Virus record (IMG/VR): IMGVR_UViG_2706796071_000001
Length of the DNA: 64,000 nt
Direction: 5' to 3' (one strand)
Origin: a virus
Taxonomy: Duplodnaviria; Heunggongvirae; Uroviricota; Caudoviricetes; Herelleviridae
Shown: positions 1,470 through 39,164 of the stretch, piece by piece
Position numbering within the stretch: position 1 is the first letter of the stretch
Layout of the letters: each line of letters starts with the position of its first letter
Made by a program: the position numbers and the translations under genes
The notes under the pieces: generated by a model
What the model was told of the DNA's origin: nothing
Databases searched by the model: none
What the model saw: the letters and a program-made list of their open reading frames with translations, nothing else

Positions 1470-1600
1470 TTTAAAAGTCAACACCTAAAATATAGAACGT
1501 AAGTCAACACCCTATATTAAAAGTCAACATTATAACCCCTCCCTGTAAGTCAATAATTTATAGTACAAATAGACAACCTCTAAATATAAAGTCAACATAT
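1470..1600. repeat. five direct iteron-like repeats, (A/G)AAGTCAACA(C/T), spaced about 22-42 bp apart
   Basis: Copies read aaagtcaacacc, gtaagtcaacacc, aaagtcaacatt, gtaagtcaataat and aaagtcaacata. They lie between two convergent terminators, and a G-tract-rich segment (1370-1440) sits upstream. Confidence 0.6.
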
Positions 1601-1605
1601 CTAAA

Positions 1606-1638
1606 ATAAAAAAAAAAGAGAGGGAGTTAACTCCCCTC
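1606..1638 (-). terminator. rho-independent terminator for the leftward gene 1642-1932
   Basis: Plus-strand A12 followed by hairpin gagagggagtt/aactcccctc. On the minus strand this reads as a hairpin followed by a U-run. Confidence 0.6.
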
Positions 1639-1641
1639 CAA

Positions 1642-1932
1642 CTAGTTCAATACTCTTCTGTTATTTAACTCCTGCTCAACTGTATTCAAGTGTTCCCAAA
1701 CCTCAATCCAATTTACTCTTGAGTCATCATAATAAAGGTGAAAATCTTGAGGATTTTCTAAATAACAATCTAACTCGTCATAGTATAAAACATCAAAAGG
1801 TATAGTATCTAAACCTAGTTGTATCTTTAGTATATCTTTATATCCTAATTGTTTATTTCCACAGTAAGCTGTATGTTCTAATCTCTCTTCTAATTTATTA
1901 AATAATGTTTGTACGCCTTGTAATTCATTCAT
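1642..1932 (-). CDS. hypothetical protein
   Basis: 96-aa ORF. The RBS aggaggtaatac lies upstream on the minus strand. Confidence 0.5.
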   Translation of the reverse strand: MNELQGVQTLFNKLEERLEHTAYCGNKQLGYKDILKIQLGLDTIPFDVLYYDELDCYLENPQDFHLYYDDSRVNWIEVWEHLNTVEQELNNRRVLN

Positions 1933-2035
1933 AATGTATTACCTCCTAAGTTATTATATACTTAGTATAAAGGATATTAATTAGAATGTCAACCCTTATT
2001 ATACATAAAAAAAGAAGGAAATTAAATCCCTTTTC

Positions 2036-2272
2036 TTAGGTATTATTAACAACCTCTAATTCATGTATAGTAATCATATCCATTCCATAGAAATCTCTTG
2101 GGTCTCCTTTAATGAACTCTTGCTCTCCTCTATGGTTTGTTTCCTCTTTATAACCTTCTTCTTTAATACGTTTAATTAAGTTCTCCTTATCTGTGTATAT
2201 CTTATCTTCTCTAAAATGGAAGTTATCTTCATAAGGTTCACAATTATCATGTTCTACTTGGTATAGTTTCAT
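2036..2272 (-). CDS. hypothetical protein
   Basis: 78-aa ORF. Its start is translationally coupled to the upstream gene (atg overlapping a stop). Confidence 0.5.
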   Translation of the reverse strand: MKLYQVEHDNCEPYEDNFHFREDKIYTDKENLIKRIKEEGYKEETNHRGEQEFIKGDPRDFYGMDMITIHELEVVNNT

Positions 2273-2273
2273 A

Positions 2274-2759
2274 TTACTTATTCTCCTTGATTTCTTTTAG
2301 ATAGTTTTCATAATAAGCTCTTGATTCTTGTGTTAACTTTTCTCTTTCTTCTCTAGACCATTGTAATGCTCCCCAAAATTTTTCATAATTTTCTTTTGAT
2401 AAGTCACCTAATGGACTGCCCTTAGGTAAGTCTTTAGTAGCTTCTTTCCATTTCTTATCTCTTTCTTTTTTAATTTCATCTAGTTTTTCTTGATTACCTT
2501 TAAATATGACTCTTGGTTTGGATAGTAAGAATTCTAGTATTTCTTCATCTGTAAATACCTTTGCATAACTATCTTTCCATGTAGTATCTTCATAAGAGTG
2601 TTTACCTGTATCTTCTAATTCTTTTAACGCCAATTTTGAGTAACCTTTTGCATCTATAAGCCCTCTAGTATACATACTTGCAGGGTCTAAGAATTTTATT
2701 TGGTTCTCATAATTAATAATACTTGTTTCGAATTTAAGTTTGGCTTGTTCTTTGTTCAT
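2274..2759 (-). CDS. hypothetical protein
   Basis: 161-aa ORF. RBS ggaggattaagtATG. Confidence 0.55.
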   Translation of the reverse strand: MNKEQAKLKFETSIINYENQIKFLDPASMYTRGLIDAKGYSKLALKELEDTGKHSYEDTTWKDSYAKVFTDEEILEFLLSKPRVIFKGNQEKLDEIKKERDKKWKEATKDLPKGSPLGDLSKENYEKFWGALQWSREEREKLTQESRAYYENYLKEIKENK

Positions 2760-2771
2760 ACTTAATCCTCC

Positions 2772-3179
2772 TTATACATTTACACTCATGATTAAGTAAA
2801 AGTCATAGAATTTACCTTCATATTGTTCTACATTGTATATATGAGACATTAATCTATAATAATATTCTGCATCATGTGTACCTTTAAACGTTTTTTCATT
2901 AAACTCATTTTTCATTAGATTAACTAACTTGTCTTTAGTTAGTACGAATACGCCTTCACACCATTCTTCAAACTCATCATAATATGTCTCTGCGTCTCTT
3001 AAGAGTAAGTCCATAAAATATCCTGGTTTTCTAAAGTCATCTTCAAAGTTAAATCCTTTATAATAATTCTTTTCTAATATATGTCTATACCTAGCGTTAT
3101 TAATAAAGTGCTGTAAGCCTTTCTGTTCCACTTTTCTATTACTTAATGTCACACCGATTACTTCAAAGTCTAATCCCAT
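2772..3179 (-). CDS. hypothetical protein
   Basis: 135-aa ORF in a tightly packed leftward operon. Confidence 0.55.
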   Translation of the reverse strand: MGLDFEVIGVTLSNRKVEQKGLQHFINNARYRHILEKNYYKGFNFEDDFRKPGYFMDLLLRDAETYYDEFEEWCEGVFVLTKDKLVNLMKNEFNEKTFKGTHDAEYYYRLMSHIYNVEQYEGKFYDFYLIMSVNV

Positions 3180-3610
3180 TATTTTTCCTCCTCTTCATAA
3201 GACCACGTACCATATTCTGCATTATAGTGTGCTGTATCTGCACCTTCATCTTCATATTCTACACTATACCATGCATCCTCCTCTGTTTCTGCATCTATAT
3301 ATCTTACCTCTTCTGTAGTAATAGTACGTTTTACTTTGTATCTCTTCAACTGTTTTTCCTCCTTTATATTTTCCTCTAGTATTTGTTTTAATGTCTGACA
3401 GTCTTTTTGGTCTAGAGTATCCCAACTCTCTAAATTTTGTAATTGGTATAGTAACTCATTTACAATTTCATCGAAGGCTTCTGCTTTTTTATATACTTCT
3501 TCTAGTTCTGTTTCTGCTAATTTTCTATTCCTTTTAATTTGTTCTGCTTTAGCTACTAAGATATGGGCTTTATTCATTTCCTCTATAATAAAGTTTTTAT
3601 AGTTTTCCAT
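3179..3610 (-). CDS. hypothetical acidic coiled-coil protein
   Basis: 143-aa ORF with an E-rich C-terminus. RBS gggagggataaataATG. Confidence 0.55.
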   Translation of the reverse strand: MENYKNFIIEEMNKAHILVAKAEQIKRNRKLAETELEEVYKKAEAFDEIVNELLYQLQNLESWDTLDQKDCQTLKQILEENIKEEKQLKRYKVKRTITTEEVRYIDAETEEDAWYSVEYEDEGADTAHYNAEYGTWSYEEEEK

Positions 3611-3612
3611 TA

Positions 3613-3804
3613 TTATTTATCCCTCCTATTTTCTATCCGTTGTTTTATCTCTTCTCTATTGCGGTGGTGCTCCTTACTCATTTCTTTACGTTCCTTATTT
3701 GTTAACCTTATCCTATAAACAAGGTAGTTAATGTATAAGGTGCCGGCTGACCATAGTAGCAAGAATGATATTAGATAAGTCCATGAGATACTAATTTCTA
3801 TCAT
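3613..3804 (-). CDS. small membrane protein
   Basis: 63 aa. Hydrophobic N-terminal segment followed by a basic tail. Confidence 0.4.
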   Translation of the reverse strand: MIEISISWTYLISFLLLWSAGTLYINYLVYRIRLTNKERKEMSKEHHRNREEIKQRIENRRDK

Positions 3805-4286
3805 TGTGAGTCCTCCTTATATTCTTTATAGCTTTTGATGGCTATTTTACAAATACCTCTATTTACAGCAACAAATACTATAAATGATAATAGTGTTATA
3901 ACTGCTCTTACATCTCCTGTAAAAGGTAATGATTGAAAGAGCAAATAGCTTTCTAAAACACTAATAGCTGTAATAATAGTTAGATATAATATAGATAGTA
4001 AGTAATCCTTTAATCTTAGTTTAACAAATGGTTTTTTGTGCTCATCTGTTCTTACAATACCATATAAAATTATAAACCACATAACAGGTACTAACTGTAT
4101 AATAAAATCATTGTCTACATTTAATGCGTGTAGAGCGTAAATAATAACTGCAGGAATACCTATAATGAATGCTAGAAATACAGAAAATATAATTAACATT
4201 ATAGGAAGGGCTACAAGAAAACCTAGACCTTGTTTTGAATACTCTAATGTGTTTTTACCTAGGAACTTAAAAAATGTTTTATTCAT
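3801..4286 (-). CDS. integral membrane protein
   Basis: 161 aa with about four predicted transmembrane segments. Confidence 0.55.
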   Translation of the reverse strand: MNKTFFKFLGKNTLEYSKQGLGFLVALPIMLIIFSVFLAFIIGIPAVIIYALHALNVDNDFIIQLVPVMWFIILYGIVRTDEHKKPFVKLRLKDYLLSILYLTIITAISVLESYLLFQSLPFTGDVRAVITLLSFIVFVAVNRGICKIAIKSYKEYKEDSQ

Positions 4287-7868: not shown

Positions 7869-7905
7869 AAATTTTATCTCCTTTACTATATTTTGTACAA
7901 TTAAT

Positions 7906-7936
7906 ATAACAAAAAAACACCTATTAGTTTAAATAG
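7906..7936 (-). terminator. rho-independent terminator ending the tRNA/ncRNA transcription unit
   Basis: Hairpin acacctattagtttaaataggtgt followed by a U7 run on the minus strand. Confidence 0.55.
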
Positions 7937-7939
7937 GTG

Positions 7940-8500
7940 TCCGACAGAGCTCCCGTACTTAGATTACGGTTAATAATATTTTACGACAATTATATGAGAC
8001 CCTCTGTCGTTGAAACTCTTGTCACTGCGTTATTCCACAAGATATTTTAGAAGGTAGCTTGTGGAAGAAGATTGTTTTTAAAGGTACAATTAGCGTTTTT
8101 AAGCCTATTCGATACCCAGGACACTATGTCCGTACTAACTATTACGTCAATAAAGGTTCTACGGTCTCAATTACCTACTCTTTATTGTTAAAACTAAAAT
8201 TAAGCTTGAGTGCTCTAGAAGCCAAAATCAATTAATTAACTATAGATACGGAATGGAGGGGCACTACCATCCGGAGTCTACGGTCAGATACAAAGCCTCT
8301 GCCGGGCAACATACGGTATCTCTCGTACATCAGGTTGACTAGACCTTTAGAGTTTTTCACTCCTTCTCTTATAACCAGTAACTTAAGAGAAATAGGTTTT
8401 ACTTAGTAGATATGAAACAATAAATCCACATACAATATTAAATCATAGTCAAGTGATTGCACATATGTCTAACACCTATAAGTTTTTTGCTAGCCTGGTA
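7940..8500 (-). ncRNA. candidate structured noncoding RNA of about 500 nt, co-transcribed with the tRNAs
   Basis: No ORF of 60 codons or more. GC is clearly higher than in the flanks. There are many local inverted repeats (acgaca/tgtcgt, ttccacaag/cttgtggaa, ggaca/tgtcc) and a repeated 'tctacggtc'. It is bounded by an upstream promoter and a downstream terminator on the minus strand. Confidence 0.35.
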
Positions 8501-8502
8501 TA

Positions 8503-8574
8503 TGGACTCTGCAGGATTCGAACCTACAGTCAAACCGTTATGAGCGGTTGGCTTTACCTTTAAGCTAAGAGTCC
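8503..8574 (-). tRNA. tRNA-Met (anticodon CAT)
   Basis: Folds by eye. Acceptor stem GGACTCT/AGAGTCC, T-arm GGTTCGAATCC, anticodon loop CTCATAA. Confidence 0.8.
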
Positions 8575-8828: not shown

Positions 8829-8857
8829 AATATACCATAAATTATACTTAATGTCAA
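8829..8857 (-). promoter_or_regulatory. sigma-A-type promoter driving the tRNA/ncRNA unit
   Basis: Minus-strand reading gives AAATTAACTTGACA, a 17-nt spacer, then TATATT. Confidence 0.5.
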
Positions 8858-9402
8858 GTTAATTTATCAATTGAATCTATAATTTTTGATGTGCTACGTA
8901 TATCCGCCTCTTTACTATGTTTAAGGAGATATTTTAATTTCATTAAAAAAGAATTTTTTTCTTTTTCTATAATATCTTCTTTATCCTCATATTCTGAAAA
9001 CATAATGAATTCTATACCTATACTATTTCTATTATGTGAAAACATATTTATAGAAAAAGGTGAATCAAAATTTTTATCATCTTTATTAATACTAAAGTCT
9101 TCAGTAACCTGTAAGTCATTTATTTCAGATATTTCAAAGTAACCATTAACTCTTTTAAGTTCAATATAACTATTGTATCTAAAGTAACGTTGTTCTTCTA
9201 TTAACTTCTCTTTTGTTATATAAGGATATTCATTTATGAATATAGGATTACTTGTTCCATAGTTATCTCTAATATATTCTGCATCCTCTAGGGAATCAGT
9301 ATAACCTAAAATTTCATAACTTGTTGTATACACTGTATCTTCTTCCCACAAGTCATAGTCCATTTCCTCTATTTCTTCTTCTAATATATAAATTTTTTTC
9401 AT
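8854..9402 (-). CDS. hypothetical acidic protein
   Basis: 182-aa ORF. Confidence 0.5.
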   Translation of the reverse strand: MKKIYILEEEIEEMDYDLWEEDTVYTTSYEILGYTDSLEDAEYIRDNYGTSNPIFINEYPYITKEKLIEEQRYFRYNSYIELKRVNGYFEISEINDLQVTEDFSINKDDKNFDSPFSINMFSHNRNSIGIEFIMFSEYEDKEDIIEKEKNSFLMKLKYLLKHSKEADIRSTSKIIDSIDKLT

Positions 9403-23777: not shown

Positions 23778-24203
23778 TTATATATCAATTGATTTTTTTG
23801 CAAGATTATCAGCGTAGTCATTCCATTTATCATTTGAGTGACTTTTTACTTTTACAAAGTTTATATCTATTACTTTTTGGTATTCTCGTATCATATTAAT
23901 ATATGTTTTACTTAGAATATTTCTTGCAGACCAAGTACCTTCATACCAATGTATTAAACCAATATAATCTATATAAACTATTGCCTGATTGTATCCTAGT
24001 TTTATAGCCTCTTCGATACCATAACAACAAGCTAATATTTCACCTGCAACATTATTATACTTTATCAATCCTGGTTTGTCAACACTTTTACTAATTTCCG
24101 CTATTATATTTCCTTCTTTACTTACTAAGACAGCACCTGAGCCTACTTTACCTTTATTATAAGATGAGCTACCGTCTGTGTATATATTTACACTATCCTG
24201 CAT
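23778..24203 (-). CDS. rnh: ribonuclease H (RNase HI). Start revised to the internal ATG, MQDSVNIYTDGS.
   Basis: YTDGS ... AE ... SHSND.WNDYADNLAK catalytic pattern. RBS tatggaggattataaatATG at 24203. Confidence 0.75.
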   Translation of the reverse strand: MQDSVNIYTDGSSSYNKGKVGSGAVLVSKEGNIIAEISKSVDKPGLIKYNNVAGEILACCYGIEEAIKLGYNQAIVYIDYIGLIHWYEGTWSARNILSKTYINMIREYQKVIDINFVKVKSHSNDKWNDYADNLAKKSIDI

Positions 24204-24384
24204 ATTTATAATCCTCCATAAATTGAGGGAATTCACAATCTGAGTATACTTCTCTGCAGAAAGATACTGAAATATAATTAAAATCAAAACATTTGAAACA
24301 GTGTTCTTGAACTTCTTTTTTGTCTTTAGCAATCACATTAAATTTAAAACCATCAGCTATTACTGTAAATACTCCTTTTTTCAT
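24193..24384 (-). CDS. small Cys-rich protein
   Basis: 63 aa. HCFKCFDFNYISVSFCREVYSDCEF. RBS ggaggtatttgttttATG. Confidence 0.4.
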   Translation of the reverse strand: MKKGVFTVIADGFKFNVIAKDKKEVQEHCFKCFDFNYISVSFCREVYSDCEFPQFMEDYKYAG

Positions 24385-24406
24385 AAAACAAATACCTCCA
24401 CTAATT

Positions 24407-25048
24407 TTATTTTAAATTAATAACTAACTCAATAAACGATTTAATAGTTTTATTTTTACCTTCATCAATATCTGAAAAGAAATTAATTAAACTATCATCT
24501 TCATCAAATAAATCTTCAACATCATCAAATTTATTTAATATGTCTGTAACACTATAACCTTCTTCTGATATATACTCATGCAAGTCTTCTCCATCCTCTG
24601 ATAGAGTTGCTTCTATCTTACCATTCTTGCTTTCAATTAAATACAAAGTATTTAATACTTTAATAGAATCCACTACTACACTGTAATTACTAATAGTAGG
24701 ATACTCTGTATAAAGTATTTCCACATTAGTATTCATATAACTATCAATTACAGAATTAACTGTGTCCCTTTTTAATTCAGATACATTATGTTTTCGTATA
24801 GTAGGGAATTCTTCGTCATATTCTACTAATTCTTTTCTATCTGTATTCAATAACTTATCTAAAGAAGACAATAATACTATTTTATATTGATTGTCCGGTA
24901 GACTATCTGTAATTTCCATAATGGTTAAAAAAGTATCTTCACCTAAAACTTTATTTATATCCTGTAGTTCAAATGAATCTACCATTTCAATAGTATCATC
25001 TATATCATCTGTAGTCATTAAAAAATTAACTAAATTATTATTCTCCAT
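24407..25048 (-). CDS. acidic hypothetical protein
   Basis: 213-aa ORF, D/E-rich. Confidence 0.5.
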   Translation of the reverse strand: MENNNLVNFLMTTDDIDDTIEMVDSFELQDINKVLGEDTFLTIMEITDSLPDNQYKIVLLSSLDKLLNTDRKELVEYDEEFPTIRKHNVSELKRDTVNSVIDSYMNTNVEILYTEYPTISNYSVVVDSIKVLNTLYLIESKNGKIEATLSEDGEDLHEYISEEGYSVTDILNKFDDVEDLFDEDDSLINFFSDIDEGKNKTIKSFIELVINLK

Positions 25049-30658: not shown

Positions 30659-30895
30659 TTGTATCTCTCCTTTTAAATATGTAAAGTATATAGCTAGTAT
30701 CGTATCCTAGGAACAAACACTTGCGCTATATACTCAATGAAACTCTACCCTCATTCGAGGACACAGCAAACCGGTTCGTCAACCGAACATATGAATTCTC
30801 AAGTTCCATTTATGTAACACACCCTCTTTGATTTGCACAAAGACTAAGGGTTTTGGAGACCCTTGTACTACTAATTATACTAAGGGTGTTTATTA

Positions 30896-30968
30896 TGGTT
30901 TCTATTGGATTTGAACCAATGACACCTAGAGCTTCAATCTAGTGCTCTACCATCTGAGCTAAGAAACC
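30896..30968 (-). tRNA. tRNA-Phe (anticodon GAA)
   Basis: Acceptor GGTTTCT/AGAAACC. Anticodon stem-loop CTAGA-TTGAAGC-TCTAG. T-arm GGTTCAAATCC. Confidence 0.85.
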
Positions 30969-30974
30969 TTGTAA

Positions 30975-31048
30975 CGACTCATACGAGACTCGAACTCGTA
31001 CTCTCTGCCGTGACAGGGCAGTGTGTTAACCAGTTACACCAATGAGCC
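30975..31048 (-). tRNA. tRNA-Asp (anticodon GTC)
   Basis: Acceptor GGCTCAT/ATGAGTC with one G-U pair. Anticodon stem-loop CTGCC-CTGTCAC-GGCAG. T-arm GAGTTCGAGTCTC. Confidence 0.8.
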
Positions 31049-31975
31049 AAAATAAATGCTATACCCTAACCTTACCTTAATGTATAGCAGGTTTTCATAT
31101 AAGCTCGAAGCAACGATTATTACCACTCATAACAACTATATATTAAGTGAAAGGAGGTGAAATGAACAAAACGTGGTAATTGGTACTTATATAGGAAATA
31201 TGTATAATCTACAAGGAGTAAGTTATTGGTTCATAAAGGAGTGTGAACAATAAATACATGAAAGAGTGAAAGAGTGAAAGTCTACTCCTTGTAGATTCTT
31301 TTTTAATTATCAATCAAAGGAGGAAACTGATAATTGTTAATAATAAACTATAAAGAGGAAAATATTTATAGTCACATTCTGATATAATGCAACTAAATAT
31401 CCAAGCATAACCCGTCTCACGAGGAACCTACCTATAAGACCTGTTATTAAGTGAATCACTACGATTGACTCTATTAAGGAGCTACCTTAAGTCCATCTCA
31501 CGCAATTTAAAAGGGACTTACAAACCGCATAACGGTAGTAAGTTTATTAAATAATGTGATATTAACATATTAGTTAATAACTTTCACATGGTCGAAGAAA
31601 AGTAAATTTATTTGATTACCAAATTATTTTTATCAAATATAGCTCTTTTGAACCTGTAGATTTATGCTACTCATACTGATAACCTCTATTATCTAACACA
31701 TTTCTGTGCTCCAACTACAGTTAGTCGTTACAGCGTATCTTTCTAGGATTCCGCTAAGACCCTAGAAAGAAATTAAACCCTAGCCGTTATCATACTCTAC
31801 AGACCTTATAAGTAAGTACCAAGTATACCAATCGTATTTAACAATACTAATGACGACTCACCCTACCGATATATCTCCGATAGGTTTTGATTCGTTTGAT
31901 TATCTTGTACCTTATGACTACCAAATCATTATTCAGTCACTATGCTCAGATATTTAGTTGTATTATTATATATTA

Positions 31976-32004
31976 ATTATAACATATTATATACCCCTTG
32001 TCAA
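31976..32004 (-). promoter_or_regulatory. consensus sigma-A promoter driving a leader of about 920 nt followed by tRNA-Asp and tRNA-Phe
   Basis: rc reads AAATTAACTTGACAaggggtatataatatgtTATAAT. Confidence 0.6.
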
Positions 32005-32011
32005 GTTAATT

Positions 32012-32054
32012 TCAAAAAAAAATTATAGAAGTAGGTACACGTACCTACTTCTAT
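32012..32054 (-). terminator. rho-independent terminator
   Basis: Minus-strand hairpin atagaagtaggtac-gt-gtacctacttctat, then AA and a U9 run. Confidence 0.6.
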
Positions 32055-32149
32055 TTAACTTACATAAGGATGTTTACATTGTTGTTGTTTATACTGGAAA
32101 ACAATGTAAGAAAAAAAACAGTGATGTGTAAGGTATTTGTTTTATTGTT
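32055..32149 (-). ncRNA. candidate small RNA of about 135 nt, bounded by promoter B and the terminator at 32012-32054
   Basis: The consensus promoter at 32156-32184 puts the TSS near 32149. The transcript has an internal stem-loop (acattgtt...aacaatgt, 32058-32109) and a terminator hairpin. It contains no ORF; every ATG is followed at once by a stop. Confidence 0.4.
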
Positions 32150-32155
32150 AATTAC

Positions 32156-32184
32156 ATTATAGCATATACTGATACCTTTGTCAA
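32156..32184 (-). promoter_or_regulatory. consensus sigma-A promoter B. Near-duplicate of the promoter at 31976-32004.
   Basis: rc reads AAATTAACTTGACAaaggtatcagtatatgcTATAAT. Confidence 0.6.
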
Positions 32185-32210
32185 GTTAATTTAATACTTT
32201 TTTTAAAATA

Positions 32211-32429
32211 TTAGTTATCTTTTGTTAATTCTTCCTGAATAGCATCCCATCTTCTTTCTGCTTCACTACGATTATCTTCTATATGTTTTGTAGTTTTACA
32301 ACATTTGATACAGTATATATCTTTGATATGACCTTCTTCTCTTTTATTTGCTCTTTTTCTTGGTACTTTGAATACATTACCACATTCTTTACATATTAAA
32401 CTTGAGTAAAACATTTTTTGTCTTTTCAT
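32211..32429 (-). CDS. small Zn-ribbon protein
   Basis: 72 aa. CKECGN ... CIKCCK arrangement (CxxC...CxxC). RBS agaaaaggaattgattaattATG. Confidence 0.5.
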   Translation of the reverse strand: MKRQKMFYSSLICKECGNVFKVPRKRANKREEGHIKDIYCIKCCKTTKHIEDNRSEAERRWDAIQEELTKDN

Positions 32430-32468: not shown

Positions 32469-32497
32469 ACTATATACTATATTGATAAATAAGTCAA
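32469..32497 (-). promoter_or_regulatory. sigma-A promoter for gene 32211-32429
   Basis: rc reads TTGACTtatttatcaatatagtaTATAGT. Confidence 0.5.
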
Positions 32498-36703: not shown

Positions 36704-38194
36704 AAAGTGACGGTAGTAACGACAAATGAACAAATGAAGAAATTTGTTCAGTCTCGTTTGAACCCTGTATTAGAAAAAGAGTATTTTAGAGATATTGTTG
36801 ATTGGGATAAAGACTCTTTAGGTTTTAAAAAGATAAGAAACTCTAGTTTATTCTTTAGAACAAGTTCTAAAGCAAGTACTGTAGAGGGTGTGGATATTGA
36901 CTACTTATCCTTAGATGAGTATGACAGGGTAAACTTATTAGCAGAGTCATCTGCATTAGAGTCAATGTCTTCATCACCTTTTAAGATTGTGAGAAGATGG
37001 AGCACACCATCTGTACCCGGTATGGGTATACACAAATTATATCAACAATCAGACCAATGGTATTATGGTCATAGATGTCAACATTGTGATTATTTAAATG
37101 AAATGAGTTATAATGATTACAACCCTGATAATCTTGAAGAAAGTGGGAATATGTTATGTGTTAACCCTGAAGGTGTAGATGAACAGGCTAAAACAGTACA
37201 GAATGGTAGTTACCAATTTGTTTGTCAAAAATGTGGTAAACCGCTAGATAGATGGTATAATGGTGAGTGGCATTGTAAGTACCCTGAGCGTACAAAAGGT
37301 AATAAAGGGGTACGAGGATACCTAATAACACAAATGAACGCTGTATGGATTTCTGCGGATGAATTAAAAGAAAAAGAAATGAATACAGAATCTAAGCAAG
37401 CGTTTTACAATTATATTTTGGGTTATCCGTTTGAAGATGTTAAACTTAGAGTTAATGAAGAAGATGTTTATGGTAATAAATCACCTATTGCAGAAACACA
37501 ATTAATGAAACGAGATAGATATTCTCATATAGCTATTGGTATAGATTGGGGAAATACTCATTGGATAACTGTTCATGGTATGTTACCTAATGGTAAGGTA
37601 GACTTAATACGATTGTTCTCTGTTAAAAAGATGACAAGACCTGATTTAGTTGAAGCAGATTTAGAAAAAATAATTTGGGAAATATCTAAGTATGACCCTG
37701 ATATTATAATTGCAGATAATGGAGATTCAGGAAACAATGTTTTAAAACTTATTAATCACTTTGGAAAAGATAAAGTATTTGGATGTACTTATAAATCCTC
37801 CCCTAAATCTACAGGACAGTTGAGACCTGAGTTTAATGAGAACAACAATAGAGTTACAGTAGATAAATTAATGCAAAATAAAAGATACGTACAAGCACTT
37901 AAGACAAAGGATATAAGTGTTTATAGTACAGTAGATGATGATTTAAAAACTTTCTTAAAACATTGGCAAAATGTTGTTATTATGGATGAAGAAGATGAAA
38001 AAACTGGAGAAATGTATCAAGTTATTAAACGTAAAGGTGACGACCATTATGCGCAAGCAAGTGTTTATGCCTATATCGGATTAACAAGAATAAAAGAACT
38101 TCTTAAAGAAGGAAATGGTACAAGCTTTGGTTCTACATTTGTTTCTACTGATTACAATCAAGAAGGAAATAAACAATTCTACTTTGATGAATAG
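36704..38194 (+). CDS. terL: terminase large subunit, exon 2 (Walker B plus RNaseH-like nuclease domain)
   Basis: Walker B reads DIDYLSLDEYD. Nuclease motifs read HIAIGIDWGNTHWITVHG and IIADNGDSGNN. The frame is open upstream to 36680, with no ATG needed. Confidence 0.75.
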   Translation, partial: KVTVVTTNEQMKKFVQSRLNPVLEKEYFRDIVDWDKDSLGFKKIRNSSLFFRTSSKASTVEGVDIDYLSLDEYDRVNLLAESSALESMSSSPFKIVRRWSTPSVPGMGIHKLYQQSDQWYYGHRCQHCDYLNEMSYNDYNPDNLEESGNMLCVNPEGVDEQAKTVQNGSYQFVCQKCGKPLDRWYNGEWHCKYPERTKGNKGVRGYLITQMNAVWISADELKEKEMNTESKQAFYNYILGYPFEDVKLRVNEEDVYGNKSPIAETQLMKRDRYSHIAIGIDWGNTHWITVHGMLPNGKVDLIRLFSVKKMTRPDLVEADLEKIIWEISKYDPDIIIADNGDSGNNVLKLINHFGKDKVFGCTYKSSPKSTGQLRPEFNENNNRVTVDKLMQNKRYVQALKTKDISVYSTVDDDLKTFLKHWQNVVIMDEEDEKTGEMYQVIKRKGDDHYAQASVYAYIGLTRIKELLKEGNGTSFGSTFVSTDYNQEGNKQFYFDE

Positions 38195-39008
38195 AGGTGA
38201 AATAGACTTGACAGATAAATTATTTTATGGTACAATTAGTAATGAAGAAATTAATAAAAGTGTATTGAATTTGTTATTAGGTGAGGAATTATCTTTAGAC
38301 TATGTTTCTAAAAATAGTGATACCTTAGATGTTAAGTACGAACATATCTATAAATCTCTAGGATTCGATAATTTCTTTGATTGTTTTTTATATGCTAATA
38401 GAGAGCCTGAAATAGTCCATAAAGGCGGAGATAAAAATCTTGGTGGACTAAATAAAGTTAAAAGAACTGTTGTTAGAAATGGTAAAGAAATGGAAATGAC
38501 AGTTTACGAAGATGGTAATAAAGATAATGATAGTAAAGAAAAACAAGAAAGTAAAGAAGAAGTTAGTAGAAGTGCAGTAGGAGCAAAAGCTGTTTCTAAT
38601 GGTGAAGAAGGAAAGGTAAACCCTAAAAAGGTAGCAAATTCATTATCTAGTTTAAATAAAAAAGGTGCGGATATATCTCATATTAATACAAACTCATCAT
38701 TATATAAAGAGTTTGTTGATGAGAATGGTGATACACTAGGAATTACATCTTTTAAAAGAACTGAAAATGATATAATATTAGAATCTTATGCAAGTTCACC
38801 CGATTCAGATGGTGTAGGGGCTAGAGCTATTATGGAACTATTACGTTTAAGTATTAAGGAAAATAAAAATGCAGTTGTGTATGACATAGAATTGCCTGAA
38901 GCTATAGAGTATTTAAAAACTTTAGGATTTAAACCTAATAAAGATGGATACATCTTAAGAAAAAAAGATGTAAAACAATTCTTAGGTGATTATAGTGATT
39001 TTATTTAG
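38187..39008 (+). CDS. hypothetical protein, possibly with a GNAT-like C-terminal fold
   Basis: An ATG overlaps the terL stop (gATGAAtag). C-terminus reads DSDGVGARAIMELL. The start position is uncertain. Confidence 0.5.
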   Translation: MNRGEIDLTDKLFYGTISNEEINKSVLNLLLGEELSLDYVSKNSDTLDVKYEHIYKSLGFDNFFDCFLYANREPEIVHKGGDKNLGGLNKVKRTVVRNGKEMEMTVYEDGNKDNDSKEKQESKEEVSRSAVGAKAVSNGEEGKVNPKKVANSLSSLNKKGADISHINTNSSLYKEFVDENGDTLGITSFKRTENDIILESYASSPDSDGVGARAIMELLRLSIKENKNAVVYDIELPEAIEYLKTLGFKPNKDGYILRKKDVKQFLGDYSDFI

Positions 39009-39164
39009 CACTATAATCATCTATTCTATTGTATTTATCTTATACATTATATTAAAAACAATTTATGTAAAGTCTAATATGAATAGAATAGATAACACAA
39101 CTGAATTATTAAAAATATTACAGGAAGATATTGAAGGAAAGATAAAAAAGGAAGGAAGAAATAA

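What the first reader, a model, noticed from the sequence alone, without database searches (positions are those of the whole stretch)
32012..32184. Candidate small RNA with its own consensus promoter and intrinsic terminator; duplicated promoter cassette
Two almost identical leftward promoter cassettes lie 180 bp apart, at 31976-32004 and 32156-32184. Both read CTTGACA-17-TATAAT in the context ...TTGTCAAGTTAATTT... The upstream one (B) initiates at about 32149 and runs through a stable internal stem-loop (acattgtt...aacaatgt) into a strong terminator (30-nt hairpin plus U9 at 32012-32054). This defines a discrete RNA of about 135 nt with no ORF. The downstream promoter (A) sits just past that terminator and drives the long tRNA leader. 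Such an arrangement is typical of a regulatory sRNA or an antisense/decoy RNA.
Basis: seen in the sequence. Interest (0 to 1): 0.6.

Follow-up and report, generated by a model that had tools for sequence, protein, structure and literature searches.

The report
Conserved small RNA unit before phage lncRNA
Between the iro gene and the very abundant lncRNA2/tRNA cluster of Staphylococcus phage phiIPLA-RODI lies a small non-coding unit of about 135 nt with a consensus promoter, a conserved 80-nt RNA element and a strong terminator; it is conserved across the Twort-like staphylococcal phages, no published transcript map lists it as an RNA of its own, and its function is unknown.

Summary
The window is phage phiIPLA-RODI (Kayvirus). 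On the minus strand there are two perfect extended TTGACA-17-TATAAT promoters 180 bp apart. Between them lie a 10-bp hairpin and a 13-bp hairpin followed by U9, with no credible ORF. The parts are already in the literature: the upstream promoter is p78 of phage 515A1, the terminator is assigned to gp191/iro in phage K, and the downstream promoter drives the published lncRNA2. No study reports a separate small RNA here.

Comparison of seven Twortvirinae lineages adds three points:
- The upstream promoter and the first ~80 transcribed nt are conserved across genera. Identity is 81-85%, against 70-75% for the neighbouring iro CDS.
- The hairpin shows compensatory changes, and it may form a pseudoknot.
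- The terminator module has been replaced repeatedly and ranges from strong to weak to absent. Sepunaviruses lack both it and the second promoter, so there the element is the 5' leader of lncRNA2.

The best reading is a real small non-coding RNA nested in the iro 3'UTR and tied to the lncRNA locus. Its mechanism is unresolved: target scans were no better than shuffled controls. It matches no Rfam family, and the loop motif was not found in any Staphylococcus genome scanned. Expression is unverified. Interest is moderate.

The parts
32469..32497 (-). iro (gp060) promoter, TTGACT-17-TATAGT. Its mRNA has no terminator before 32054, so the small unit is also the iro 3'UTR.
   Evidence: It equals p79/TU17 of 515A1 and the gp191 promoter at 39090 in phage K.
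32211..32429 (-). iro / gp060, a 72-aa Cys-rich small protein annotated 'ribosome associated inhibitor A; zinc finger'. This is the upstream gene.
   Evidence: It is conserved across Herelleviridae. Pfam gives only a weak zinc-finger hit.
32156..32192 (-). Promoter P_B: the upstream context AAATTAAC, -35 TTGACA (32184-32179), a 17-nt spacer ending in TG, and -10 TATAAT (32161-32156). The predicted start is 32149/32150.
   Evidence: It equals p78 of 515A1, found there only by PWM search. It is conserved in Kayvirus, Sciuriunavirus, Sepunavirus, Silviavirus, Twort and DH2.
32119..32149 (-). Conserved 5' tract AACAAUAAAACAAAUACCUUACACAUCACUG. The core CCUUACAC is shared by most lineages. ACUG (32122-32119) is the 5' strand of the candidate helix P1.
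32110..32118 (-). U-rich linker (U8 then C). Its length varies from 5 to 8 U among phages.
32074..32109 (-). Conserved hairpin P2. The stem is 32109-32100 with 32083-32074. The loop UUCCAGUAUAAACAAC is nearly invariant. CAGU (32096-32093) in the loop can pair with ACUG (32122-32119), which would make an H-type pseudoknot.
   Evidence: I7. RNAalifold predicts the hairpin independently. Pair counts show 3 pairs changed on both sides and covariation 0.105 against 0.037 in shuffles. Twort, DH2 and Romulus have different stems, with P1 as ACUAGG/CCUAGU.
32055..32073 (-). Start of the lineage-variable module. In RODI it contains UGUAAG (32064-32059), which is complementary to the tract CUUACA (32132-32127).
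   Evidence: The pairing is seen only in the RODI/K/S25-3-type variants.
32014..32054 (-). Intrinsic terminator: a 13-bp stem, a 4-nt loop, then AA and U9. It ends both the small RNA and the iro mRNA. Its T-run also sits directly upstream of P_A.
   Evidence: (I2). It is annotated as a terminator in phage K and assigned to gp191. Across phages it is replaced by non-homologous modules, is weak, or is absent.
31976..32012 (-). Promoter P_A: AAATTAAC, then TTGACA-17-TATAAT with a TG extension. It is the promoter of lncRNA2, with a start near 31969.
   Evidence: It equals p78_1 of 515A1, curated there from a coverage step, and the lnc promoter at 38602 in phage K.
31400..31969 (-). lncRNA2, a published and very abundant phage non-coding RNA. 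It is context for the finding, not part of the small RNA.
   Evidence: K 38,024-38,566 mapped by offset. It is conserved in all seven lineages. It has no Rfam match.
30818..31049 (-). tRNA-Asp, tRNA-Phe and tRNA-Trp, downstream of lncRNA2.

Best explanation
This is a genuine, conserved small non-coding transcription unit. It is nested in the 3'UTR of iro and lies immediately upstream of the lncRNA2 promoter.

**Proposed mechanism.**
1. Host sigma-A RNA polymerase starts at the consensus extended -10 promoter P_B, at about 32149.
2. It transcribes a conserved ~80-nt element. The element has an A/C-rich 5' tract containing CCUUACAC, a U-run, and hairpin P2 with an invariant loop that may pair back to ACUG to form a pseudoknot.
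3. In RODI, transcription stops at a strong intrinsic terminator. This gives an RNA of about 135 nt.
4. The same terminator ends the iro mRNA and shields P_A from upstream transcription.

The functional part is the conserved 80-nt RNA element, not the terminator. The element works as RNA and belongs functionally to the stable-RNA (lncRNA) locus. It is released as a separate small RNA in most lineages and is carried as the 5' leader of lncRNA2 in sepunaviruses.

**Shown:** the sequence anatomy, its conservation, the hairpin covariation and the absence of an ORF.

**Inferred:** that P_B fires, that the RNA accumulates, and that it acts as RNA. Whether it acts in trans (for example through the C/U-rich tract, which is anti-Shine-Dalgarno-like) or by binding a protein is not resolved.
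For: - **Promoter quality.** P_B is a perfect extended promoter. Only 7 such sites occur in 64 kb, against 0.07 expected.
- **Promoter conservation.** The -35, TG and -10 elements and the 17-nt spacing of P_B are kept in Kayvirus, Sciuriunavirus, Sepunavirus, Silviavirus, Twort and DH2, while the spacer sequence diverges.
- **Element conservation.** Identity to SscM1, SEP1 and BS1 is 82, 85 and 81%. The iro CDS scores 75, 75 and 70%. lncRNA2 scores 66% to SscM1 and SEP1, but 82% to BS1.
- **Model search.** A covariance model of the element finds it in every Kayvirus, Sciuriunavirus and Sepunavirus locus (73-102 bits), in BS1 (28 bits) and in DH2 (19 bits, filters off).
- **Hairpin P2.** RNAalifold predicts it independently. 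Three pairs changed on both sides, and 0 of 500 shuffles reach the observed covariation score. Twort, DH2 and Romulus have entirely different stem sequences around a similar loop.
- **Candidate helix P1.** It changes from ACUG/CAGU to ACUAGG/CCUAGU by matched insertions.
- **Terminator.** The RODI terminator is strong (-17.3 kcal/mol, z = -6.3, U9). In other phages it is replaced by at least three non-homologous hairpin-plus-U-run modules, and S25-3 carries compensatory stem changes. Both suggest selection for termination.
- **Non-coding.** There is no ORF or ribosome-binding site, and loop indels break any reading frame.
- **Missing expression data is explicable.** The three RNA-seq studies used RNeasy, or TRIzol with standard fragment libraries. 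One of them also reports low coverage of the tRNAs.
Against: - **No transcript evidence.** In 515A1, P_B (p78) was found only by PWM search and starts no transcription unit. The two phage K maps omit it and give the terminator to gp191.
- **Termination is not universal.** It is weak in Stab22, EW36, PG19, Twort, DH2 and Romulus (-5 to -7 kcal/mol, large loop). It is absent in sepunaviruses. A free small RNA is therefore not required everywhere.
- **No target found.** The best seed duplexes in the 64-kb window (-17.4 kcal/mol) are no better than those of shuffled seeds (-16 to -24). A 13-nt match to the ribosome-binding site of a 63-aa ORF is not conserved. Complementarity to lncRNA2 fails in Twort and SscM1.
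- **Thin support for P1.** It rests on essentially one evolutionary event, and P1 is invariant elsewhere.
- **Within-genus conservation is lower than the flanks.** RODI against K gives 90% for the element, 98% for iro and 98.7% for lncRNA2.
Confidence: 0.5

Rival explanations
1. Tandem promoters plus an insulator, with no small-RNA function. P_B is simply an upstream (P1-type) promoter of the lncRNA2/tRNA stable-RNA operon. The hairpin-plus-U-run is the iro terminator or attenuator that protects P_A. Any short RNA is a by-product.
For: - Sepunaviruses have only P_B, which reads straight into lncRNA2.
- Several lineages have only a weak hairpin and U-run between the promoters.
- Published maps treat the terminator as that of gp191 and do not see a start at P_B.
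- The three promoters with the AAATTAAC-TTGACA context are exactly those upstream of stable-RNA genes.
Against: - A mere spacer would not keep 81-85% identity across genera, above the adjacent iro CDS.
- A spacer would not keep a hairpin by compensatory change.
- The RODI terminator is strong, so little read-through is expected.
- Different strong terminators have been inserted at the same spot in different phages.
- In BS1 the element sits downstream of lncRNA2, not next to a P_B.
Confidence: 0.25
2. A cis-acting leader. The conserved pseudoknot or hairpin just downstream of P_B would be an attenuator, riboswitch-like sensor or polymerase-modifying (put-like) element. It would set how much P_B transcription reads through into lncRNA2 and the tRNAs.
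For: - The position fits: directly after a strong promoter and before a terminator.
- In four lineage groups P2 is itself followed by a U-run.
- The candidate H-type pseudoknot has a U-rich L1 and an A-rich L3. From my own knowledge, this topology resembles small pseudoknot riboswitches such as preQ1-I.
- In sepunaviruses the element is a true 5' leader.
Against: - No Rfam family, including preQ1, matches in any lineage even at E <= 10.
- By inspection of the variants, I found no alternative (antiterminator) pairing that tracks the non-homologous terminators.
- A consensus promoter (P_A) lies immediately downstream, so controlling read-through would change lncRNA2 output little.
- In BS1 the element lies 3' of lncRNA2.
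Confidence: 0.12
3. A DNA-level element, for example a protein-binding site linked to the nearby putative replication origin, or chance structure in AT-rich DNA.
For: - The putative origin of phage K lies between gp190 and gp191, a few hundred bp upstream.
- The loop motif is conserved at the sequence level.
Against: - Stem positions change in a compensatory way that preserves RNA pairing.
- The element always has the same orientation downstream of a conserved promoter, except in BS1.
- It occurs once in the window.
- The features are far beyond chance.
Confidence: 0.05
4. A translated micro-ORF.
For: A UUG-initiated 14-codon frame and two AUG-UAA start-stop pairs exist, read from the sequence.
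Against: - No Shine-Dalgarno sequence is present.
- No ORF of 20 aa or more exists on this strand.
- Single-base indels in the loop shift the frame between close relatives.
- The plus-strand ORFs span the variable module and are not conserved.
Confidence: 0.02

Closest known systems
3'UTR-embedded small RNAs with their own promoter that share the terminator of the upstream mRNA ('type I', e.g. DapZ and MicL in enterobacteria; from my own knowledge)
   Same: P_B starts 27 nt after the iro stop codon, and there is no terminator in between. The small RNA and the iro mRNA therefore share one intrinsic terminator.
   Different: - This is a phage locus in a Gram-positive host.
- No Hfq-type seed or target has been identified.
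- The terminator is dispensable in some lineages.
- Expression has not been demonstrated.
Small stable RNAs encoded beside phage tRNA genes (T4 species 1/2, also called band C/D RNAs), and abundant lncRNAs beside tRNAs in phages (GOLLD and ROOL; Kayvirus lncRNA1 and lncRNA2)
   Same: It is a non-coding RNA of unknown function. It sits in the stable-RNA island of a large lytic phage, next to tRNAs and a highly expressed lncRNA.
   Different: - It has its own consensus promoter and terminator, rather than being processed from the tRNA precursor. The T4 comparison is from my own knowledge.
- There is no Rfam match to GOLLD, ROOL or any other family.
Tandem P1-P2 promoters of rRNA/tRNA operons
   Same: Two strong sigma-A-type promoters in the same orientation lie 120-210 bp apart, upstream of stable-RNA genes. 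They share an A/T-rich upstream context.
   Different: In RODI a strong intrinsic terminator and a conserved structured element sit between the two promoters.
Promoter-proximal terminated phage transcripts that act as small RNAs or antitermination leaders (lambda oop; the Shiga-toxin phage PR' short RNA, PMC7547250; HK022 put RNAs)
   Same: A short RNA defined by a constitutive strong phage promoter and a nearby terminator.
   Different: - There is no antisense partner gene.
- No sequence or structure similarity was found.
- A second full promoter follows immediately.

Membership tests
Independent bacterial/phage sRNA gene (promoter + intrinsic terminator, non-coding) | Sigma-70/sigma-A promoter at the 5' end | tested here: met
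   A 12/12 consensus match with a TG extension. Only 7 perfect sites occur in the window, against 0.07 expected. The promoter is conserved in seven lineages.
Independent bacterial/phage sRNA gene (promoter + intrinsic terminator, non-coding) | Rho-independent terminator at the 3' end | tested here: met
   In RODI: a 13-bp stem plus U9, -17.3 kcal/mol, z = -6.3. Across relatives it is strong, weak or absent.
Independent bacterial/phage sRNA gene (promoter + intrinsic terminator, non-coding) | No translated ORF | tested here: met
   There is no minus-strand ORF of 20 aa or more, no Shine-Dalgarno sequence, and frames are broken by indels between relatives.
Independent bacterial/phage sRNA gene (promoter + intrinsic terminator, non-coding) | A discrete transcript is detected | not testable with these tools
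   Published RNA-seq neither lists it nor could be expected to capture it. P_B was found only by PWM search or is absent from the maps. The RNA preparations deplete small RNAs.
Independent bacterial/phage sRNA gene (promoter + intrinsic terminator, non-coding) | A base-pairing target with conserved complementarity | tested here: inconclusive
   Scans of the window were no better than shuffled seeds. The candidate ribosome-binding-site match and the candidate lncRNA2 match are not conserved. The host genome and the remaining 78 kb of the phage were not scanned.
Type I 3'UTR-derived sRNA | It lies in the 3'UTR of an upstream mRNA, has its own promoter and shares the terminator | tested here: met
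   The iro stop is at 32211 and P_B at 32184-32156. No terminator occurs before 32054. The terminator is assigned to gp191 in phage K.
preQ1-I-like pseudoknot riboswitch | Match to the Rfam covariance model | tested here: not met
   No riboswitch family matched at E <= 10 in the window, DH2, Romulus, BS1, SEP1, SscM1 or Stab22.
preQ1-I-like pseudoknot riboswitch | H-type pseudoknot supported by covariation | tested here: inconclusive
   P2 is supported. P1 is invariant in 14 distinct sequences. It changes by one matched insertion event in Twort, DH2 and Romulus.
GOLLD / ROOL / other Rfam RNA families | Covariance-model match | tested here: not met
   Only tRNAs reach threshold. Nothing matches the small unit or lncRNA2.
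rrn-type tandem promoters | Two same-sense promoters upstream of stable-RNA genes with uninterrupted read-through from P1 | tested here: not met
   The two promoters are present, but in RODI a strong terminator lies between them. The feature is met only in sepunaviruses, in degenerate form.

The most novel reading that the evidence does not exclude
The conserved 80-nt element would be a new pseudoknotted RNA motif that works together with the enigmatic, hyper-abundant Twortvirinae lncRNAs. It could be a partner, an assembly or processing signal, or a stability module. It would not be an ordinary base-pairing sRNA.

The observations behind this reading:
- The element is a free RNA next to lncRNA2 in most genera.
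- It is fused to the 5' end of lncRNA2 in sepunaviruses.
- In Baoshanvirus BS1 it lies between an lncRNA2-like and an lncRNA1-like sequence.
- It travels with lncRNA2 even where the tRNAs are missing, as in Twort.

The evidence does not exclude this reading, and it does not directly support it either.
Probability: 0.12. Interest if true: 0.75.

Novelty: new member of a known kind. Interest (0 to 1): 0.45.

Why it matters
Kayviruses (phage K, ISP, Sb-1, phiIPLA-RODI and others) are the main therapeutic phages for Staphylococcus aureus.

- Their transcript maps leave this unit out. If it is real, P_B is among the best promoter matches in the 64-kb window read here, and the maps miss what it makes.
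- The unit sits beside lncRNA2. Together with lncRNA1, that RNA takes up to about a quarter of all phage reads, and its function is unknown.
- A small conserved RNA that is free in some genera and fused to lncRNA2 in others offers a genetic handle on that open problem.
- It also warns that standard RNA-seq of phage infection, with RNeasy or fragment libraries, misses RNAs shorter than 200 nt.
- If it proves to be only a terminator/promoter spacer, the result is still a corrected annotation. Several records call spurious CDSs here.

Tried and rejected
1. **Rfam.** Searches of the window region, of the 281-nt interval alone at E <= 10, and of six related loci gave only tRNAs and noise.
2. **Whole-element target scan.** RNAduplex of the 90-nt core against both strands of the 64-kb window was dominated by long A/U duplexes and was uninformative.
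3. **Seed-only target scan.** The best energies (-17.4) lie within the range of 10 shuffled seeds (-16.4 to -24.0).
4. **A 13-nt perfect match.** AAAACAAAUACCU is complementary to the ribosome-binding site of the 63-aa ORF at 24193..24384. The complementarity is absent in SEP1 and is only the generic Shine-Dalgarno pairing UAAGGGG/CCCCUUA in SscM-1. Rejected.
5. **Pairing between the tract and lncRNA2.** A 7-nt match falls at homologous lncRNA2 positions in Kayvirus and DH2, but it is broken without compensation in Twort and SscM-1. Rejected.
6. **Host mimicry.** A scan of 185,579 bacterial and archaeal genomes for the loop motif gave 2 chance hits (Saprospiraceae, Neobacillus) and none in Staphylococcus.
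7. **IMG/VR scan for the motif.** Of 37 hits, only 5 were homologous, and all were Twort-like phages.
8. **Micro-ORF reading.** Rejected.
9. **Antiterminator pairing.** By inspection, pairing between the tract and the 5' arm of the terminator reaches only about 5 bp and is not consistent across terminator types. Not pursued.
10. **More distant homologues.** The covariance model did not find the element in Listeria P100 or in Mammaliicoccus phage PMS2, where a P_B-like promoter drives a protein gene instead.

Full report
**Identity of the window.** The 2-kb stretch around the finding is 100% identical, at identical coordinates, to Staphylococcus phage phiIPLA-RODI (Kayvirus rodi; KP027446 / NC_028765). 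The finding lies in the 1.16-kb gap between gp060 and the tRNA cluster. gp060 (32211..32429, minus strand) is called 'iro' in other records and is annotated 'ribosome associated inhibitor A; zinc finger'. The tRNA-Asp/Phe/Trp cluster occupies 30818..31049 on the minus strand.

**Checking the observation.** Every feature is present on the minus strand.
- There are two 12/12 TTGACA-17-TATAAT promoters with TG extensions, at 32184..32156 (P_B) and 32004..31976 (P_A). The whole window has 7 such perfect sites, against 0.07 expected.
- Both promoters are preceded by AAATTAAC.
- The 'cassettes' are 78% identical over 37 nt at a spacing of 180. They share the promoter elements and upstream context but are not near-identical.
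- The internal stem is 10 perfect pairs.
- The terminator has a 13-bp stem, a 4-nt loop and U9, at -17.3 kcal/mol and z = -6.3.
- The predicted RNA runs from about 32149 to about 32014, roughly 135 nt. It folds at -28.2 kcal/mol, z = -5.1.
- It has no ORF of 20 aa or more and no ribosome-binding site.

**What the literature already holds.**
- In phage 515A1, both promoters are listed. p78 corresponds to P_B, but it was found only by a PWM search and starts no transcription unit. p78_1 corresponds to P_A and was curated from a coverage step. The 515A1 terminator list lacks the hairpin.
- In phage K, two independent maps list only the P_A-equivalent promoter, for the lncRNA. They assign the hairpin to gp191/iro as its terminator.
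- The RNA started by P_A is the published lncRNA2, one of the two most abundant regions of the phage transcriptome. It accounts for 8.4% of counts in 515A1. Together with lncRNA1 it accounts for 27% of reads in phage K.
- No paper describes a separate small RNA upstream of it.
- The silence is weak evidence. One study used RNeasy columns and also found the tRNAs poorly covered. Another used TRIzol with a standard fragment library.

**Comparative anatomy.** I aligned 22 distinct sequences and read further loci. Together they cover Kayvirus subgroups, Sciuriunavirus (SscM-1), Sepunavirus (SEP1, BE04), Silviavirus (Romulus), Twort and DH2, and Baoshanvirus (BS1).

The common layout is: P_B, a conserved 5' tract, a U-run, hairpin P2 with a near-invariant loop, a variable module, P_A, and the 5' end of lncRNA2. 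In most lineages P_B directly follows the iro stop codon; in Twort and DH2 it lies further downstream.
- P_B keeps its -35, TG, -10 and 17-nt spacing while the spacer sequence diverges.
- The tract is AACAAUAAAACAAAUACCUUACACAUCACUG, with the core CCUUACAC.
- The P2 loop reads UUCCAGUAUAAAC(AAY).

Between genera the element is 81-85% identical. The neighbouring iro CDS is 70-75% identical. lncRNA2 is 66% identical to SscM1 and SEP1 and 82% to BS1. A covariance model recovers the element in all these loci and, more weakly, in BS1 and DH2.

**The variable module.** It takes several forms:
- the RODI/K terminator;
- a compensated version of it in S25-3 and YCP;
- two unrelated two-hairpin modules (V1SC04/St14GH/PG17, and EW1/PSU5/SscM-1);
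- nothing but a U-run directly after P2 (Stab22, EW36, PG19, Twort, DH2, Romulus), where the 'terminator' is only -5 to -7 kcal/mol;
- in sepunaviruses, no terminator and a decayed P_A, so that P_B reads straight into lncRNA2.

In BS1 the element lies downstream of the lncRNA2 homologue and upstream of a sequence resembling lncRNA1. Twort has no tRNA annotated in the stretch after lncRNA2 but keeps the small unit with lncRNA2.

**Structure.**
- RNAalifold predicts P2 without guidance.
- On the model-fitted alignment, three P2 pairs change on both sides and 88.6% of cells are paired. The covariation score is 0.105 against 0.037 for shuffles (0 of 500 reach it), and slid controls collapse.
- Twort, DH2 and Romulus have wholly different stems (ACUUUUU/AAAAAGU and UUACGUUUU/AAAACGUAA) around a related loop.
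- ACUG in the tract can pair with CAGU in the P2 loop, which would give an H-type pseudoknot with a U-rich L1 and an A-rich L3. This helix (P1) is invariant in Kayvirus, Sciuriunavirus, Sepunavirus and BS1. It becomes ACUAGG/CCUAGU through matched insertions in Twort, DH2 and Romulus. That is suggestive, but it amounts to one evolutionary event.
- No Rfam family matches.

**Function tests.**
- Target scans in the window were no better than shuffled controls.
- A 13-nt match to a ribosome-binding site and a 7-nt match to lncRNA2 both fail the conservation test.
- The loop motif is absent from all Staphylococcus genomes among the 185,579 species genomes scanned, so host mimicry is not supported.

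**Conclusion.** The unit is real at the level of sequence and evolution. It has a conserved strong promoter, a conserved and structured 80-nt RNA element, no coding capacity and, in RODI, an efficient terminator shared with the iro mRNA. The most likely reading (about 0.5) is a genuine small non-coding RNA whose functional part is the 80-nt element and which belongs to the lncRNA/tRNA 'RNA island'.

The main rival (about 0.25) is a purely architectural role: the iro terminator plus tandem promoters. A cis-regulatory leader remains possible (about 0.12).

The regulatory-sRNA interpretation is only partly supported, because neither expression nor any target is shown. The components were already annotated piecemeal. 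The discrete-RNA reading, the cross-genus conservation, the hairpin covariation and the modular terminator turnover are new. I rate it a new member of a known kind (a phage-encoded small RNA in a 3'UTR) and of moderate interest.

Noticed in passing
window 31400-31969 (-): lncRNA2, the published hyper-abundant Kayvirus non-coding RNA, starts at P_A. Homologues at 63-82% identity exist in Sciuriunavirus, Sepunavirus, Silviavirus, DH2 and Baoshanvirus, and a homologue is readable in Twort, which has no tRNA annotated downstream of it. It has no Rfam match, including to GOLLD and ROOL, although the papers liken it to them.
   Followed up: partly
window 8829-8865 (-), and 7900-8574: A third promoter has the same AAATTAAC-TTGACA context (TTGACA-17-TATATT). 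It drives tRNA-Met and lncRNA1. Of the 58 early promoters listed for 515A1, only the three upstream of stable-RNA genes have this context.
   Followed up: partly
L061 (phiSA_BS1) 3405-3489 and 3570-3640: In Baoshanvirus BS1 the conserved hairpin element lies 3' of the lncRNA2 homologue. It is followed by a stretch resembling part of lncRNA1 (compare window ~8150-8215, minus strand). The two lncRNA-like sequences are therefore adjacent, with the element between them.
   Followed up: partly
L014 (PMS2) 1598-3059; L062 (Listeria P100) 2605-4125: In Mammaliicoccus phage PMS2 a P_B-like promoter drives a ~500-aa DUF2828+DUF7788 protein annotated 'RNA-binding protein'. In Listeria phage P100 the same protein is encoded downstream of the iro homologue. 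A paper on the P100-like phage CKA15 calls this protein Ro60/Rsr-like and reports three highly transcribed non-coding regions next to it (PMC12282133). The iro-adjacent locus looks like a conserved 'RNA island' in Herelleviridae.
   Followed up: partly
window 32055-32073 and homologous positions in relatives: The segment between hairpin P2 and P_A is a hot spot of module replacement. There are at least four non-homologous terminator or hairpin modules, plus deletion, among otherwise ~90-99% identical phages.
   Followed up: yes
window 32127-32132 with 32059-32064 (-): In RODI/K/S25-3-type variants a short 'anti-tract' (UGUAAG, UGUGUAA or AUGUGUA) just before the terminator can pair with the conserved CCUUACACA tract and would sequester it. 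The register differs between RODI and K, but 6-7 pairs are kept.
   Followed up: partly
window 24371-24410 (-): The ribosome-binding site of a 63-aa ORF upstream of RNase H (GGAGGUAUUUGUUUUAUG) is perfectly complementary over 13 nt to the small RNA's AAAACAAAUACCU. The match is not conserved in SEP1 or SscM-1.
   Followed up: yes
window 32211-32429 (-): Iro/gp060 is a 72-aa Cys-rich protein conserved from staphylococcal to Listeria and Bacillus Herelleviridae. The 'ribosome associated inhibitor A' label has no Pfam support. The only hit is a weak zinc-finger match at E = 7e-4, below the cutoff.
   Followed up: partly
L007 (V1SC04) 1728-1893; window 31958-32162 (+): Some GenBank records annotate short 'hypothetical protein' CDSs on the opposite strand, across the small unit and the lncRNA. 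These ORFs span the variable module and are not conserved, so they are probably spurious calls.
   Followed up: partly
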